Shown piece after piece: positions 35,002 to 37,877 of a DNA stretch of 64,000 nt. The DNA lies in contig JAYRZE010000001.1 of assembly GCA_041916635.1 (NCBI GenBank), forward strand, positions 2,860,949 through 2,924,948. Reading direction: 5' to 3'. Position numbers and translations under genes: made by a program. The DNA comes from Sphingomonadaceae bacterium. GTDB taxonomy: Bacteria > Pseudomonadota > Alphaproteobacteria > Sphingomonadales > Sphingomonadaceae. How positions within the stretch are numbered: the first letter of the stretch is position 1; every line of letters starts with the position of its first letter. The notes under the pieces were generated by a model, which saw only the letters and a list, made by a program, of their open reading frames with translations, did not search any database and was not told where the DNA came from.

Positions 35002-36570
35002 ATGCCCCAGAGCCAATCAACTCAGCCACCGTTGCTGAGCTTCGATCATTTCATCACTCATTGGGCAATGGATCGCCCGGATCGCCTGGCCTTGCGCGAG
35101 GAAGATCGTACGCTGACCTTTGGGGAACTGGAAGAGCGAACCGCCAAGGTCGCTTCGGCGCTTCTAGCAGCCGGTCTGAAGAAGGGCGACCGGATCGCCT
35201 GGCTCGGCAAGAATAGTGACCTCTACTACCAGCTCTTCTTCGGAGCGGCACGGATCGGCGTGGTGATGGTCCCGGTCGGCTGGCGGCTCGCCCCGGTCGA
35301 AATTGCTTATATCGTAAACGACACGAAGGCTCGGCTGCTTTTTATGGGGCCCGGCTTTGATGCGGTCGCAGAGGCGATCCGGAATGATCTGGTTCATGTC
35401 GAACGCGTTCTCGGTGCCGACGCGACAAGGCGCTGGATCGAGGCAAGCCCGCGCACCACGTTCGAAGCCGCTGGCCCCGACGATGCGGTGCTTCAGCTCT
35501 ACACCTCGGGCACGACAGGCAATCCCAAAGGAGCCGTCCTTTCGAACCGGAACCTGTTCGGACTACGCATCCCGTCGCTCGATGCCGGGCTGCCCTGGTC
35601 GCGCTGGGACGATGACGAAGTCGTGCTGATGTGCATGCCCTGCGCGCACATCGGGGGGACCGGGCTCGGCGTCATGGCGCTGGCCGCAGGCGTTACCGGC
35701 CATATCATGGCCGAGTTCGAACCCGGCGGCGTGCTCGATGCGGTCGAGACTGGTGGCGTGACACGCTTCTTCATGGTGCCCGCCGCGCTGCAGATGGTCA
35801 TCAACCATCCGCGAGCCGCAGCGACGGATTTCTCACGCCTCAAATATATCATCTACGGCGCCGCGCCGATCCCGCTTGAGCTTCTGCGCGAATGCATCAA
35901 GGTGTTCGGCGCGCAATTTCTCCAGGCCTATGGCATGACCGAGACGACCGGGACTGTCGTCATGCTTCCACCCGAAGACCACGACCCGAACGGCAGCCCC
36001 CGCATGCGCGCGGCGGGCAAGCCACTGCCCGGCGTCGAACTGAAGGTGGTGGACGACGCCGGCAATGAAGTGGCGACGGGCGACGTGGGCGAGATCATCA
36101 CACGCTCCTCGAACAACATGATATCATACTGGAACCTGCCCGAAGCGACGGCCAGGACCATGAGCGCGGACGGCTGGGTCCGTACCGGCGATGCCGGCTA
36201 TCTCGATGCTGACGGCTATCTCTATATTCACGACCGGGTGAAGGATATGATCATTTCGGGCGGCGAGAATGTCTATCCCGCCGAAGTCGAAAGCGCGATC
36301 TATGGCCATCCGGCGATTGCCGAAGTCGCCGTTGTCGGAGTGCCCGACGATAAATGGGGCGAGGCCGTGAAGGCCGTCTGCGTGCCCAAGCCGGGCGCCA
36401 CGATCGACGAAGCCGATGTCATCGCCTGGACGCGCGAGCGGATCGCCGGTTTCAAGGTTCCGAAGTCGATCGACGTGATCGCCGCCCTCCCCCGCAACGC
36501 TAGCGGCAAGATCCTACGCAAGGACCTGCGCGCACCCTATTGGGAAGGGCGCGAGCGGCAGGTGAATTAG
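35002..36570 (+). CDS. Long-chain fatty-acid-CoA ligase (AMP-binding enzyme)
   Basis: YTSGTTGNPKG, YGMTET, TGDAG, GGENVYP, NASGK. Confidence 0.95.
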   Translation: MPQSQSTQPPLLSFDHFITHWAMDRPDRLALREEDRTLTFGELEERTAKVASALLAAGLKKGDRIAWLGKNSDLYYQLFFGAARIGVVMVPVGWRLAPVEIAYIVNDTKARLLFMGPGFDAVAEAIRNDLVHVERVLGADATRRWIEASPRTTFEAAGPDDAVLQLYTSGTTGNPKGAVLSNRNLFGLRIPSLDAGLPWSRWDDDEVVLMCMPCAHIGGTGLGVMALAAGVTGHIMAEFEPGGVLDAVETGGVTRFFMVPAALQMVINHPRAAATDFSRLKYIIYGAAPIPLELLRECIKVFGAQFLQAYGMTETTGTVVMLPPEDHDPNGSPRMRAAGKPLPGVELKVVDDAGNEVATGDVGEIITRSSNNMISYWNLPEATARTMSADGWVRTGDAGYLDADGYLYIHDRVKDMIISGGENVYPAEVESAIYGHPAIAEVAVVGVPDDKWGEAVKAVCVPKPGATIDEADVIAWTRERIAGFKVPKSIDVIAALPRNASGKILRKDLRAPYWEGRERQVN

Positions 36571-36660
36571 TGCAGGAAACGCCACCTTCCCGGTCATCCA
36601 AAACCTCTCGCGGCGCATAACTCTGGATGCAGCCATCAAGCTGCATGTGAAGGAGAGTAT

Positions 36661-36753
36661 ATGTCCCTCGCAGATATATGCCTCTTTCTTGGTGCGCTAT
36701 TCGCCTTCGCGACCTTGATTCTCAAGATCGTCGAAGTGACGCGCATCAAGTAG
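36661..36753 (+). CDS. 30-aa hydrophobic peptide, putative type I toxin-like
   Basis: MSLADICLFLGALFAFATLILKIVEVTRIK*, with a strong AAGGAG RBS. One TM helix and a basic C-terminus. Below the ORF-track size cutoff. Confidence 0.7.
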   Translation: MSLADICLFLGALFAFATLILKIVEVTRIK

Positions 36754-36754
36754 G

Positions 36755-36853
36755 GCACGGGATGGGGAGGGGGCTGTAATTCGCTCCCCAGAACGATTTG
36801 GCCCCCAACCGCTGTAACGATTTGGGGGTCCGAAGGCGTATATGTCTTTCGCG
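36755..36853 (-). ncRNA. Candidate antisense sRNA to the peptide mRNA
   Basis: Minus-strand TTGATA-N17-TATTCA promoter (36887-36859). The predicted 5' end is complementary to the SD/AUG at 36649-36671. Two stem-loops follow. The ends are inferred. Confidence 0.45.
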
Positions 36854-36902
36854 GATGCTGAATAGCGCGACCGGGCGAAAATATCAACGAGACCGGCAAG
36901 AT

Positions 36903-36926
36903 GGTGGTGCAGATGATTGCACCACC
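36903..36926 (-). terminator. Hairpin after the mltG stop
   Basis: GGTGGTGCA-GATGAT-TGCACCACC, a perfect 9-bp stem with a weak U-tract. Confidence 0.55.
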
Positions 36927-36944
36927 GCCGGCAATTCCCTGCCC

Positions 36945-37877
36945 CTACATCTCCCCGCGCGAACGTCTCAGCGCATACCATTTCTGGACGTTCGCATTGT
37001 GTTGCTCGAGCGTGTCGGCAAAGACATGACCGCCCGTGCCGTCGGCCACGAAATAGAGCGCGCGGGTCGGTGCCGGATTGAGGACCGCCTCGATCGAGGC
37101 CTTGCCCGGATTGGCGATGGGGCCAGCGGGCAGGCCTGCCTTCGCATAGGTATTATAGCCGTTGTCCGCCGCCAGCTCCGATTTCAGGATGCGTCGGCCC
37201 AATGGGCGCCCTTTCGTTACGGGATAGATCACTGTCGGATCCGCCTGGAGTTTCATCCCCAGCCGCACGCGGTTCGAATAAACGCCCGCGACCGTCCGCC
37301 GCTCGCTTGCCTTGCCCGTCTCCTTTTCGACGATCGAGGCAAGGATGATCGCTTCCTCCGGGCTGCGCGCGACTGTTGTCGGCTTGCGGTCAGCCCAGGC
37401 CCTGGCAAGCGTCTTCGCCATTGCCTCCTGCATCCGCCTGAGGACGACACTGCGCTTTTCGCCCCGGGTGTAGGAATATGCATCAGGAAGGACGCTTCCT
37501 TCCGCCGGAACCGCAACACCGCCGATAAGATATTCGGCCGCCATCAGCTTGTCGGCGACAATGACGCTCGGCGTGCCTTCGGGAATGATGACGAAGCGCT
37601 GCTTTGTCTTGCCCGACTGGAGAAGCGCAAGCACATCGCCACTGCCCATCCCGGCCTTGATTTCATACTCCCCAGGTTTGATCGGCTCGGACGATCCGAA
37701 AACCCTGGCGTAGCGCAGAAAGCCCGACGCGGAATCGATTGCGCCCTGTTCCTCGAGCACGCGCGCGGCCGCCTTGAGGCTCGAGCCCGGTGGCACGACG
37801 ACGGTCACATCCTTGTCTGCGGCGCCCGAACAGGCTGTAAGCAGAAGCGCGGCCAGCAGGGCCAGCCAGAGGCGCAT
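36945..37877 (-). CDS. mltG: Endolytic transglycosylase MltG
   Basis: LASIVEKET, MKLQADPT, YNTY..GLPAGPIANPG, LYFVADG. Follows fabF. Confidence 0.96.
   Translation of the reverse strand: MRLWLALLAALLLTACSGAADKDVTVVVPPGSSLKAAARVLEEQGAIDSASGFLRYARVFGSSEPIKPGEYEIKAGMGSGDVLALLQSGKTKQRFVIIPEGTPSVIVADKLMAAEYLIGGVAVPAEGSVLPDAYSYTRGEKRSVVLRRMQEAMAKTLARAWADRKPTTVARSPEEAIILASIVEKETGKASERRTVAGVYSNRVRLGMKLQADPTVIYPVTKGRPLGRRILKSELAADNGYNTYAKAGLPAGPIANPGKASIEAVLNPAPTRALYFVADGTGGHVFADTLEQHNANVQKWYALRRSRGEM

What the first reader, a model, noticed from the sequence alone, without database searches (positions are those of the whole stretch)
36571..36930. Unannotated type I toxin-antitoxin-like module: 30-aa membrane peptide with a locked RBS and a convergent repeat-based antisense RNA
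SEEN: (a) A 30-codon ORF, MSLADICLFLGALFAFATLILKIVEVTRIK, behind a strong AAGGAG RBS. (b) The SD plus AUG (GAAGGAGAGUAUAU, 36649-36662) can pair with AUAUGCCUCUUUC (36676-36688) inside the ORF, giving 13 pairs including 2 G-U and one bulged A. (c) A further 7-bp leader hairpin at 36627-36646. (d) A degenerate DIRECT repeat of the RBS/start region downstream: GAAGGCGTATATGTCTTTCGCGGAT (36832-36856) versus GAAGGAGAGTATATGTCCCTCGCAGAT (36649-36675). (e) Just beyond it, a minus-strand TTGATA-N17-TATTCA promoter, insulated from mltG by a hairpin at 36903-36926. A transcript from that promoter would begin ...CGCGAAAGACAUAUACGCCUUC and pair across the peptide's SD and AUG. KNOWN: convergent transcription through direct repeats to create complementarity is the logic of the Fst/par (RNAI-RNAII) type I system, and RBS-sequestered short TM peptides are typical type I toxins. 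INFERENCE: this is a type I TA or sRNA-gated small-protein system. I do not recall one described in sphingomonads.
Basis: partly seen in the sequence, partly recalled or inferred. Interest (0 to 1): 0.8.

Follow-up and report, generated by a model that had tools for sequence, protein, structure and literature searches.

The report
Sphingomonad par-like type I toxin-antitoxin cassette
A 374-base inserted cassette encodes a 30-residue membrane peptide and, very probably, a small convergent antisense RNA that blocks its translation. About 70 sphingomonad genomes carry the same design, which copies the logic of the Gram-positive par/Fst plasmid-addiction system in a group where I found no such system described.

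Summary
All five observed features are at the stated coordinates. The 19-nt repeat is beyond chance (0 of 100 shuffles).

The peptide (M..C..LG..FAFATLILKVVEV.R.K) defines a family limited to Sphingomonadales. It occurs in 21 of 401 sampled genomes, in many genomic contexts, and once on a plasmid beside parB, ssb and an antirestriction gene.

In 68 distinct loci the same anatomy recurs:
- a weak sense promoter and a 5' hairpin
- SD and start codon, then a 30-codon ORF (dN/dS about 0.24)
- two GC hairpins with compensatory changes
- a direct repeat of that locus's own start region
- a minus-strand promoter, TTGAAA-N17-TATAT(A/G)

The repeat co-evolves with the start region. Within a locus, identity is 0.86-0.98 at CDS nt 4-11, against 0.25-0.63 between loci. 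It falls to background exactly at the predicted antisense start. The apical loops of the two hairpins also share a locus-specific motif, which suggests a kissing-loop site.

The closest relatives have an empty site: 4 nt between the acyl-CoA synthetase gene (called acs here) and mltG, against 374 nt in the window.

The peptide is neither Fst/Ldr nor Hol_Tox by sequence.

Verdict: a new type I TA-like family with par-type regulation.

The parts
36571..36944 (.). Whole inserted cassette between the stop codons of the acyl-CoA synthetase gene (acs) and mltG
   Evidence: The closest relatives G012, G014 and G015 have only 4 nt between the two stop codons (TAG-AGGA-TCA). The window has 374 nt. Homology to the modules of G036 and G025 runs from about 36573 to 36887.
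36593..36621 (+). Putative weak promoter of the peptide mRNA (GTCATC-N17-CATAAC)
   Evidence: A -10-like C(A/T)TA(A/T)n motif lies 5-12 nt upstream of the 5' hairpin in most loci, and the -35 is poor. This is inference only.
36627..36646 (+). 5' leader hairpin (7 bp), probably at or near the mRNA 5' end
   Evidence: It is homologous to the family hairpin GGCGGCAAUYCCGCCGCC, in which 6 of 6 pairs show compensatory changes.
36649..36675 (+). DR1: SD (AAGGAG, 36650-36655), AUG (36661) and codons 2-5. This is the target of the antisense RNA.
36649..36688 (+). Intramolecular hairpin that sequesters the SD and AUG
   Evidence: -18 kcal/mol, z -4.5. G036 and G025 keep it through changed bases (spacer GUAUAU/codon AUAUAU becomes GCAAAU/AUGUUUGC). 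There is no fixed-register covariation across the family.
36661..36753 (+). 30-codon ORF for a single-pass membrane peptide, the candidate toxin
   Evidence: The family has dN/dS of about 0.24, the ORF is 30 aa in 62 of 68 loci, and no locus has an internal stop. The profile search found 99 clusters.
36764..36789 (+). GC hairpin 1 (3' end of the mRNA); apical motif CTGTAA at 36774-36779
   Evidence: All but one of the 19 predicted pairs in hairpins 1 and 2 show compensatory changes. The loop motif is shared with hairpin 2 in a locus-specific way.
36800..36831 (.). GC hairpin 2; on the minus strand it is the terminator hairpin of the antisense RNA. Apical motif CTGTAA at 36812-36817.
   Evidence: Compensatory changes. 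The tail after it on the minus strand is T-rich in the family (4.3 T per 10 nt; 20 of 42 loci have 5 or more). The other three tails are not T-rich.
36832..36856 (+). DR2: degenerate direct copy of DR1, with GGAG changed to GGCG. It is the template for the 5' end of the antisense RNA.
   Evidence: The SD core is deleted or mutated in the DR2 of many loci, and ATG is sometimes CTG or TTG.
36790..36852 (-). Predicted antisense RNA of about 63 nt: 5' GCGAAAGACAUAUACGCCUUC, then hairpin 2, then the tail
   Evidence: The start is inferred from the promoter geometry and from the sharp end of concerted evolution at CDS nt 11-12. The duplex with the translation initiation region is -27.8 kcal/mol, against -15.9 +/- 3.2 for shuffles. 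No transcript was observed.
36859..36887 (-). Promoter of the antisense RNA: TTGATA-N17-TATTCA
   Evidence: It is positionally homologous to the family consensus TTGAAA-N17-TATAT(A/G). The spacer is 17 in 60 of 68 loci, and 52 of 68 match at 8 or more of 12 positions, against 0.8% of control segments.
36903..36926 (-). Strong hairpin upstream of the antisense promoter and downstream of mltG. It is a likely terminator or insulator and part of the cassette in this subclade.
   Evidence: -18.2 kcal/mol, z -5.3. A similar hairpin (GATGATGCA...TGCACCATC) follows the promoter in G036 and G025, although their neighbouring genes differ.

Best explanation
The cassette is a type I toxin-antitoxin-like module with par/Fst-type regulation.

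Proposed mechanism:
1. A weak sense promoter makes a short mRNA: 5' hairpin, SD and AUG, 30-codon ORF, GC hairpin(s).
2. The mRNA encodes a single-pass membrane peptide that is probably harmful when over-made.
3. A stronger convergent promoter, 100 nt downstream of the stop codon, makes an RNA of about 60-85 nt.
4. The first nucleotides of that RNA are the complement of a direct repeat of the start region. It can therefore pair with codons 4 to 1, the AUG and the leader on both sides of the SD, and so block ribosome binding.
5. Its terminator hairpin carries a loop complementary to the loop of the mRNA's 3' hairpin, which gives a likely first 'kissing' contact.
6. In this locus an intramolecular hairpin also hides the SD and AUG.

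Shown from sequence comparison: the conserved anatomy, the co-evolving repeats, the conserved antisense promoter, purifying selection on the peptide, and the inserted, patchy distribution.

Inferred only: that both RNAs are made, that pairing represses translation, and that the peptide is toxic.
For: The family has 64 loci from the search for related loci plus loci from the window's own genus, giving 68 distinct modules.

Evidence for an antisense RNA that pairs with the start region:
- Repeat score: own locus 27.2, cross-locus 14.2 (sd 3.8).
- Within-locus DR1=DR2 identity is 0.86-0.98 at CDS nt 4-11, against 0.25-0.63 between loci. It drops to background at nt 12-14.
- Predicted duplex energy: own -40.1, cross -23.7 kcal/mol.
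- Antisense promoter: -35 TTGA in 63-67 of 68 loci; spacer 17 in 60 of 68; -10 TAT in 57-62 of 68. The -10 ends 5-6 nt from the complement of codon 4 in 46 of 68.
- DR2 usually lacks the SD core, so it is not itself translatable.

Evidence for the RNA structures:
- Hairpins 1 and 2: 18 of 19 pairs show compensatory changes.
- The minus-strand tail after hairpin 2 is T-rich.
- The loops of hairpins 1 and 2 share a locus-specific 6-8-nt motif: own 6.9, cross 4.0.

Evidence that the peptide is real: dN/dS 0.23-0.25.

Evidence for an accessory, acquired element:
- Present in 21 of 401 genomes of the order and 7 of 96 genera. Only two marginal hits (E 0.003-0.004) among 400 genomes sampled across the class.
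- Empty site in the closest relatives.
- Many genomic contexts.
- A plasmid copy beside parB, a transposase, an antirestriction gene and ssb.

The architecture matches the features listed for par in PMC7472228 and PMC8594479.
Against:
- Toxicity is untested.
- The peptide is unusually well conserved for a type I toxin, with 10 invariant residues in a 31-sequence alignment. That would also fit a housekeeping-type small membrane protein.
- It is usually single-copy and chromosomal.
- It matches no toxin family above threshold.
- The window's own antisense -10 (TATTCA) lacks the final T, and its duplex (-27.8 kcal/mol) ranks only 12th of 68 partners.
- The sense-strand terminator is unclear, because there are no U-rich tails on the plus strand.
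- SD sequestration is not demonstrably conserved.
Confidence: 0.7

Rival explanations
1. The module is an sRNA-gated but non-toxic small membrane protein, for example an accessory subunit or regulator of a membrane complex. The antisense RNA only tunes its level, and there is no addiction or toxin function.
For: The sequence is strongly conserved, with an invariant C7, L10 and FA.LILK..E core and dN/dS of about 0.24. The gene is single-copy in most genomes. No hit to a toxin family passes threshold.
Against: The distribution is patchy (5% of genomes in the order). The closest relatives have an empty site. There is no conserved neighbouring gene. One copy lies in a plasmid maintenance region. 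The weak sense promoter, strong antisense promoter and multilayer translational block are the hallmark of toxic-peptide control (PMC7472228).
Confidence: 0.2
2. The downstream repeat is a functionless remnant of a tandem duplication of the gene start, and the 'promoter' is a chance match.
For: In the window alone DR2 reads as a truncated ORF (MSFADAE*). Its -10 is poor, and the generic promoter scan finds nothing.
Against: The repeat is kept in 68 loci across at least eight genera and changes together with its own start region. Its SD core is selectively lost. The promoter is conserved in sequence, spacing and distance. The identity boundary coincides with the predicted transcription start.
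Confidence: 0.03
3. The minus-strand promoter drives a protein-coding gene antisense to the peptide ORF. The window has 87- and 94-aa minus-strand ORFs, and the plasmid record annotates such a CDS.
For: A minus-strand frame is stop-free across the module in 44 of 68 loci. AP026901.1 annotates a hypothetical CDS there.
Against: The open frames fall in different phases relative to the peptide ORF (27 versus 25), and 24 loci have none. Spacing between the parts varies by non-multiples of 3. Sequence read shows no SD or start codon after the predicted start site. The openness is explained by G+C composition.
Confidence: 0.02
4. The antisense RNA acts mainly as a cis-overlapping 3' antisense (TxpA/RatA or BsrG/SR4 style). 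It would trigger degradation of a longer mRNA that reads through both hairpins and DR2, rather than blocking the ribosome binding site.
For: No U-rich tail follows either hairpin on the plus strand, so read-through is plausible. A read-through mRNA would be fully complementary to the antisense RNA.
Against: This does not explain why DR2 must track DR1, nor why the loop of hairpin 1 tracks that of hairpin 2. The two modes could coexist.
Confidence: 0.05

Closest known systems
par of Enterococcus faecalis plasmid pAD1 (Fst toxin, RNA I / RNA II) and the Fst/RNAII family
   Same: Both have convergent promoters. Both have a small antisense RNA whose 5' part is complementary to the toxin's SD and start region, because both RNAs cross DNA direct repeats. 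Both have complementary stem-loop loops as a second contact, an intramolecular hairpin over the SD, a structured mRNA 5' end, and a toxin of about 30 aa with one TM helix and a charged C-terminus. Some copies are on plasmids. The par features are taken from PMC7472228.
   Different: - The host is a Gram-negative alphaproteobacterial order, not Firmicutes.
- The peptide lacks the Fst/Ldr signature: there is no Trp between the TM helix and the tail, and no P/D/S/T-XXXG motif. It has C7-xxx-G11 instead.
- There is one long repeat with the SD core deleted in the downstream copy, instead of DRa plus DRb.
- There are two separate GC hairpins whose loops are direct repeats, so the two RNAs may not need to overlap.
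- A bidirectional terminator is not shown.
SprA1/SprA1AS (PepA1) of Staphylococcus aureus
   Same: The antisense RNA is encoded at the 3' side of the toxin gene, but acts through a non-overlapping 5' domain on the toxin's translation initiation region (PMC8594479).
   Different: PepA1 is an Fst-type peptide of Firmicutes. The complementarity there is not described as a co-evolving direct repeat with a deleted SD.
Hol-Tox family (Pfam PF16935; TC 1.E.42) and ComI (NCBIfam NF052249)
   Same: These are small single-TM peptides of about 30-48 aa. A few Sphingobium members give marginal hits (E 0.03-0.1), and UniProt names one member 'Holin-like toxin'.
   Different: The scores are far below the curated cut-off (14 versus 23.3 bits). 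Only 2 of 53 family representatives hit at all. The window's peptide gives no hit. Membership is not supported.
hok/sok and related type I systems of Gram-negative plasmids
   Same: Both involve a small membrane toxin, RNA antitoxin control of translation and mRNA folding that hides the ribosome binding site. Both sit in plasmid maintenance or leading regions beside ssb and antirestriction genes (that location for hok-type loci is from my own knowledge).
   Different: Sok is encoded inside the 5' part of the hok mRNA and acts through a leader ORF (mok). Here the RNA gene is 3'-convergent and uses repeats. There is no sequence similarity.

Membership tests
Fst/RNAII (par) type I TA family | Convergent promoters for the toxin mRNA and a small antitoxin RNA | tested here: met
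   A conserved minus-strand TTGAAA-N17-TATAT(A/G) promoter lies downstream of the ORF in 52-60 of 68 loci. A weaker sense -10 lies upstream of the 5' hairpin. This is sequence-level evidence only; no transcripts were seen.
Fst/RNAII (par) type I TA family | Direct DNA repeats transcribed in opposite directions, giving complementarity over the SD and start codon | tested here: met
   the repeat is locus-specific and co-evolving, and the predicted duplex is -40 kcal/mol (own) versus -24 (cross).
Fst/RNAII (par) type I TA family | Shared bidirectional intrinsic terminator whose complementary loops start the interaction | tested here: inconclusive
   Hairpin 2 has a T-rich tail only on the minus strand. 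The loop motif is duplicated in hairpin 1, so a loop-loop contact is possible with or without overlap. No consistent YUNR motif was seen.
Fst/RNAII (par) type I TA family | Intramolecular stem-loop that sequesters the SD | tested here: inconclusive
   Present and strong in the window. In 25 of 68 loci the translation initiation region folds with z below -2. There is no fixed-register covariation, and SD accessibility equals that of shuffled controls.
Fst/RNAII (par) type I TA family | Fst/Ldr peptide signature: TM helix, conserved Trp before a highly charged C-terminus, and a P/D/S/T-XXXG(C) motif | tested here: not met
   The peptide has no Trp and no such motif (it has C7xxxG11). No Pfam or NCBIfam hit to Fst or Ldr models.
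Fst/RNAII (par) type I TA family | Toxicity of the peptide and post-segregational killing | not testable with these tools
   This needs expression and plasmid-stability experiments.
Hol_Tox (PF16935) | Score at or above Pfam's gathering threshold (23.3 bits) | tested here: not met
   Window peptide: no hit. The best family member scores 14.2 bits. Only 2 of 53 representatives give marginal hits.
Type I toxin-antitoxin systems (general) | Small hydrophobic protein under 60 aa, plus an adjacent antisense RNA that base-pairs with its mRNA | tested here: met
   The peptide is 30 aa with one predicted TM segment. The antisense RNA gene is inferred from the conserved promoter, the complementarity and the terminator.
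Type I toxin-antitoxin systems (general) | The RNA is actually expressed and neutralises a toxic product | not testable with these tools
No transcriptome paper for a carrier strain was found.

The most novel reading that the evidence does not exclude
This is an independent, alphaproteobacterial invention of the par-type addiction module. Both RNA-RNA contact sites are encoded as co-evolving DNA direct repeats: the start region with DR2, and the loop of hairpin 1 with the loop of hairpin 2. The toxin mRNA and the antitoxin RNA therefore need not overlap at all, and each locus carries its own private 'address'. That would make it the first par-like type I TA family outside Firmicutes, moving as a promoter-to-insulator cassette of about 350 bp between chromosomes and plasmids of Sphingomonadales.
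Probability: 0.45. Interest if true: 0.75.

Novelty: new variant of a known kind. Interest (0 to 1): 0.64.

Why it matters
Type I toxin-antitoxin families are known for narrow, lineage-specific distributions (PMC5367252). According to the T1TAdb paper, the 3'-convergent, repeat-based organisation occurs only in Gram-positive bacteria (PMC8594479). I found no paper describing a type I system in sphingomonads, and no occurrence of the peptide motif in the literature.

If confirmed, this family would do four things:
- It would extend par-type RNA control to Alphaproteobacteria, arguing for convergent evolution of the design.
- It would give about 70 natural variants in which target and antisense co-vary, a ready-made data set on the specificity rules of RNA antitoxins.
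- It would add an unannotated small gene and an sRNA to many sphingomonad genomes.
- It would provide a compact, potentially orthogonal translational switch or plasmid-stabilising cassette for sphingomonads used in bioremediation.

Tried and rejected
- Rfam, both strands, E up to 10: nothing.
- Pfam and NCBIfam with the window's peptide: nothing. Family members give only sub-threshold Hol_Tox, ComI and miscellaneous TM hits. PF16935 searched in the window's own genome misses the peptide.
- Generic sigma-70 and terminator scan of 36400-37100: 0 sites. It is too strict for this -10.
- tblastn of a consensus peptide against plasmids and phages: no match. blastn with a Sphingobium module found one plasmid copy.
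- The pBS32 record, wanted for a ComI comparison, is not held.
- Test of SD accessibility against shuffled CDS: no difference.
- Fixed-register covariation of the window's SD hairpin: none.
- Antisense protein gene: rejected.
- Paralogues in the window's own genome: none.
- Earlier scan notes: nothing relevant.
- Fozo 2010 supplements are not held.
Full report
**What is in the window**

The interval lies between the 3' ends of two convergent genes. One is an acyl-CoA synthetase gene (35002-36570, +; called acs here). The other is mltG (36945-37877, -), which is followed by fabF.
- A 30-codon ORF (36661-36753) sits behind AAGGAG.
- A 7-bp leader hairpin lies at 36627-36646.
- A hairpin pairs the SD and AUG with codons 5-10. 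It is the minimum-energy fold of 36645-36692: -18 kcal/mol, z -4.5, 0 of 200 shuffles as good.
- A direct repeat of the start region lies at 36832-36856. The 19-nt core matches at 16 of 19 positions, and no match appeared in 100 shuffles of the window.
- On the minus strand there is TTGATA-N17-TATTCA (36887-36859), preceded by a strong hairpin at 36903-36926 (-18.2 kcal/mol, z -5.3).

The generic promoter and terminator scan reports nothing. Rfam, Pfam and NCBIfam are also silent. From the window alone, the case rested on pattern recognition.

**The peptide defines a family, and the whole anatomy is conserved**

A DNA search of relatives, followed by a degenerate-pattern scan of one genome per species, gave 64 further loci. 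They come from Sphingomonas, Novosphingobium, Sphingobium, Erythrobacter, Allosphingosinicella, Stakelama, Sphingorhabdus and Qipengyuania. Together they make 68 distinct modules.

The peptide consensus is M-x-x-A-x-L-C-x-x-L-G-x-L-F-A-F-A-T-L-I-L-K-V-V-E-V-x-R-x-K, with ten invariant positions. The ORF is 30 codons in 62 of 68 loci and never has an internal stop. Third codon positions vary most, and dN/dS is 0.23-0.25. It is therefore a translated gene under purifying selection. A profile search of 1.84 billion representative proteins found 99 clusters, all short and all with the AFATL(I/V)LK(I/V)(V/I)EV core.

Every locus has the same order of parts:
1. A -10-like C(A/T)TA motif.
2. A 5' hairpin, consensus GGCGGCAAUYCCGCCGCC, with compensatory changes in 6 of 6 pairs.
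3. The SD and start codon.
4. The ORF.
5. GC hairpin 1.
6. The spacer AAACGA.
7. GC hairpin 2. In hairpins 1 and 2 together, 18 of 19 pairs show compensatory changes.
8. A copy of that locus's own start region.
9. A minus-strand promoter.

**The repeat tracks its own start region**

The start regions differ between loci, yet each downstream copy matches its own:
- Local alignment scores are 27.2 for the own locus and 14.2 (sd 3.8) for other loci. The own copy is the best target in 39 of 68.
- Anchored on the AUG, within-locus identity is 0.86-0.98 at CDS nucleotides 4-11, where between-locus identity is only 0.25-0.63. At nt 6, a four-fold variable position, it is 0.86 versus 0.25.
- Identity falls to the between-locus background at nt 12-14.

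Upstream of the AUG the leader is also copied, but the SD core is typically deleted or mutated in the downstream copy. Examples are GAAAGGAGAACACAATG versus GAAAGG----CACAATG, and in the window GGAG to GGCG. The ATG is sometimes CTG or TTG. The copy is therefore kept similar, but kept untranslatable. A decaying duplication cannot produce concerted change across eight genera. Selection for complementarity between two RNAs can.

**A conserved convergent promoter sits exactly where that RNA should begin**

Scanning the 65 nt beyond the repeat on the minus strand gives these results:
- -35 element: TTGAAA (T 64, T 67, G 66, A 63 of 68).
- Spacer: 17 nt in 60 of 68.
- -10 element: TATAT(A/G) (T 60, A 62, T 57).
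- 52 of 68 loci match the sigma-70 consensus at 8 or more of 12 positions, against 0.8% of control segments from the same loci.

Read one base earlier, the motif is TTGAAA-N16-CTATAT. From my own memory of the literature, this is close to the alphaproteobacterial RpoD consensus.

The -10 ends 5-6 nt from the complement of codon 4 in 46 of 68 loci. That places the transcription start at the complement of CDS nt 11-12, the same point where the concerted evolution stops. On the minus strand, hairpin 2 is followed by a T-rich tail (CAAUUCGUUUG; 4.3 T per 10 nt; 5 or more in 20 of 42 loci). The other three hairpin flanks are not T-rich.

The predicted product is an RNA of about 60-85 nt. It has a single-stranded 5' end complementary to codons 4 to 1, the AUG and the leader, followed by a terminator hairpin. 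Predicted duplexes with the cognate initiation region average -40.1 kcal/mol, against -23.7 for non-cognate pairs.

In the window the RNA would run from about 36852 to about 36790. Its duplex is weaker (-27.8 kcal/mol; shuffled -15.9 +/- 3.2; 0 of 500 shuffles as good). Its -10 (TATTCA) is shared with the modules of G036 and G025 but departs from the consensus. This copy is therefore at the weak end of the family.

**A second repeat pair: the hairpin loops**

The apical loops of hairpins 1 and 2 carry the same 6-8-nt motif within a locus, but different motifs between loci. The window has CTGTAA at 36774-36779 and 36812-36817. Other loci have CTACCAC, CTGCAAC, CTGGCA, CGGCAA, TTGCAG, TGACAG or TTGCCG. 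The own-locus score is 6.9 against 4.0 for cross-locus pairs, and the own pair is best or tied in 30 of 42.

The loop of the antisense RNA's terminator is therefore complementary to the loop of hairpin 1 in the mRNA as well. In par of pAD1, the interaction starts at complementary terminator loops and then spreads to the repeats (PMC7472228). Here the loop contact may be provided by a repeat rather than by overlap.

**The RBS lock**

In the window the SD/AUG hairpin is strong. G036 and G025 keep it with different bases. Across the family, the segment -17..+33 folds better than shuffles (mean z -1.5; 25 of 68 below -2; codon-order shuffles -1.2). However, pairs in the window's register show no covariation (54% paired versus 53% in shuffles). 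SD accessibility in a 120-nt context equals that of controls. I treat the lock as real here and as a family tendency, not as a proven conserved element.

**An accessory, acquired cassette**

- The three closest relatives (mltG about 80% identical in DNA) have the acs stop codon, 4 nt, then the mltG stop codon. The window has 374 nt.
- The profile finds the peptide in 21 of 401 sampled genomes of the order (7 of 96 genera). It is usually single-copy, with one genome holding four. Among 400 genomes sampled across the class there are only two marginal hits, at E 0.003-0.004.
- Flanking genes fall into 147 clusters for 68 loci, with synteny only within subclades.
- One copy lies on Novosphingobium sp. 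MBES04 plasmid p2, among parB, a transposase, an antirestriction gene and ssb. It has a near-perfect repeat and a TTGAAT-N17-TAAATA antisense promoter.

None of this proves toxicity. It is the pattern expected of a selfish or addiction-type module, and not of a housekeeping membrane protein.

**Relation to known families**

The regulatory design matches, point for point, what Weaver lists for par-like loci: convergent promoters, direct repeats, loop complementarity, an SD-sequestering stem-loop and a structured 5' end. According to the T1TAdb paper, a 3'-side antisense RNA that interacts outside the overlap is known only for Fst/RNAII and SprA1/SprA1AS, both Gram-positive.

The peptide is not an Fst/Ldr member. 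It lacks the conserved Trp and the P/D/S/T-XXXG motif and gives no model hit. It is not a Hol_Tox member either, despite one UniProt name.

I therefore file it as a new family of the type I TA kind that works like par. I do not file it as a member of the Fst family. I found no publication describing it, but the library is limited to open-access papers.

**Rivals**

- A benign sRNA-gated membrane protein remains possible, at about 0.2.
- The dead-duplicate reading is excluded by concerted evolution.
- An antisense protein gene is excluded, because the open frames lie in inconsistent phases and 24 loci have none.
- A cis-overlap degradation mode may coexist, but it does not explain the repeats.

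**Limits**

Both promoters, both RNA ends, repression and toxicity are inferences from sequence comparison. The covariation counts are not corrected for phylogeny, although the cross-locus controls are conservative because related loci share sequence.

Noticed in passing
L005-L008, L071, L072 (e.g. L008:1440-1560): A second subfamily (peptide ...IVAIITAAIAFAALILKIVEVSRDK) has no ATG, GTG or TTG at a usable distance. A perfect extended SD (AGGAGGTGAT) is followed after 8 nt by an in-frame ATA, ATT or ATC, and in L071 an in-frame TAG lies just upstream. Initiation at an AUH codon looks likely, which would itself throttle translation. The downstream repeat keeps the ATA.
   Followed up: partly
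L003:1460-1500 and L003:1875-1915 (G025): This module is flanked on both sides by the same 34-nt sequence, CCCCGCATCCCCAGCTTCTTCTCCACCCCGCGCC. This may be a target duplication or insertion into a repeated element. G036 has it only on the downstream side.
   Followed up: no
L107 (AP026901.1 113717-113980, minus strand): The plasmid record annotates an 88-aa hypothetical protein antisense to the module and does not annotate the 30-aa ORF. The annotated CDS is probably spurious, because antisense frames are open here for compositional reasons.
   Followed up: partly
window 36927-36944: GCCGGCAATTCCCTGCC, just beyond the insulator hairpin, resembles the family's 5' hairpin consensus GGCGGCAATTCCGCCGCC. 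It may be a remnant of a second, lost module or of the insertion process.
   Followed up: no
window 36582-36595 and 36891-36904: An imperfect 14-nt inverted repeat (CCACCTTCCCGGTC / GACCGGCAAGATGG, 86% complementary) lies near both ends of the inserted cassette. It could be chance or a trace of how the cassette moves.
   Followed up: no
G305 (C1:549772, C1:393157, C2:654933, C1:213435): One genome of the same family carries four divergent copies of the peptide gene, while nearly all other carriers have one.
   Followed up: no
window 36636-36899 and 36697-36981, minus strand: Long minus-strand ORFs (87 and 94 aa) overlap the module. They are not conserved in phase across the family, and gene callers should not call them.
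   Followed up: yes
window 36792-36801 and 36816-36825: An exact 10-nt direct repeat, AACGATTTGG, links the spacer before hairpin 2 with the 3' arm of hairpin 2. It is specific to this locus and unexplained.
   Followed up: no
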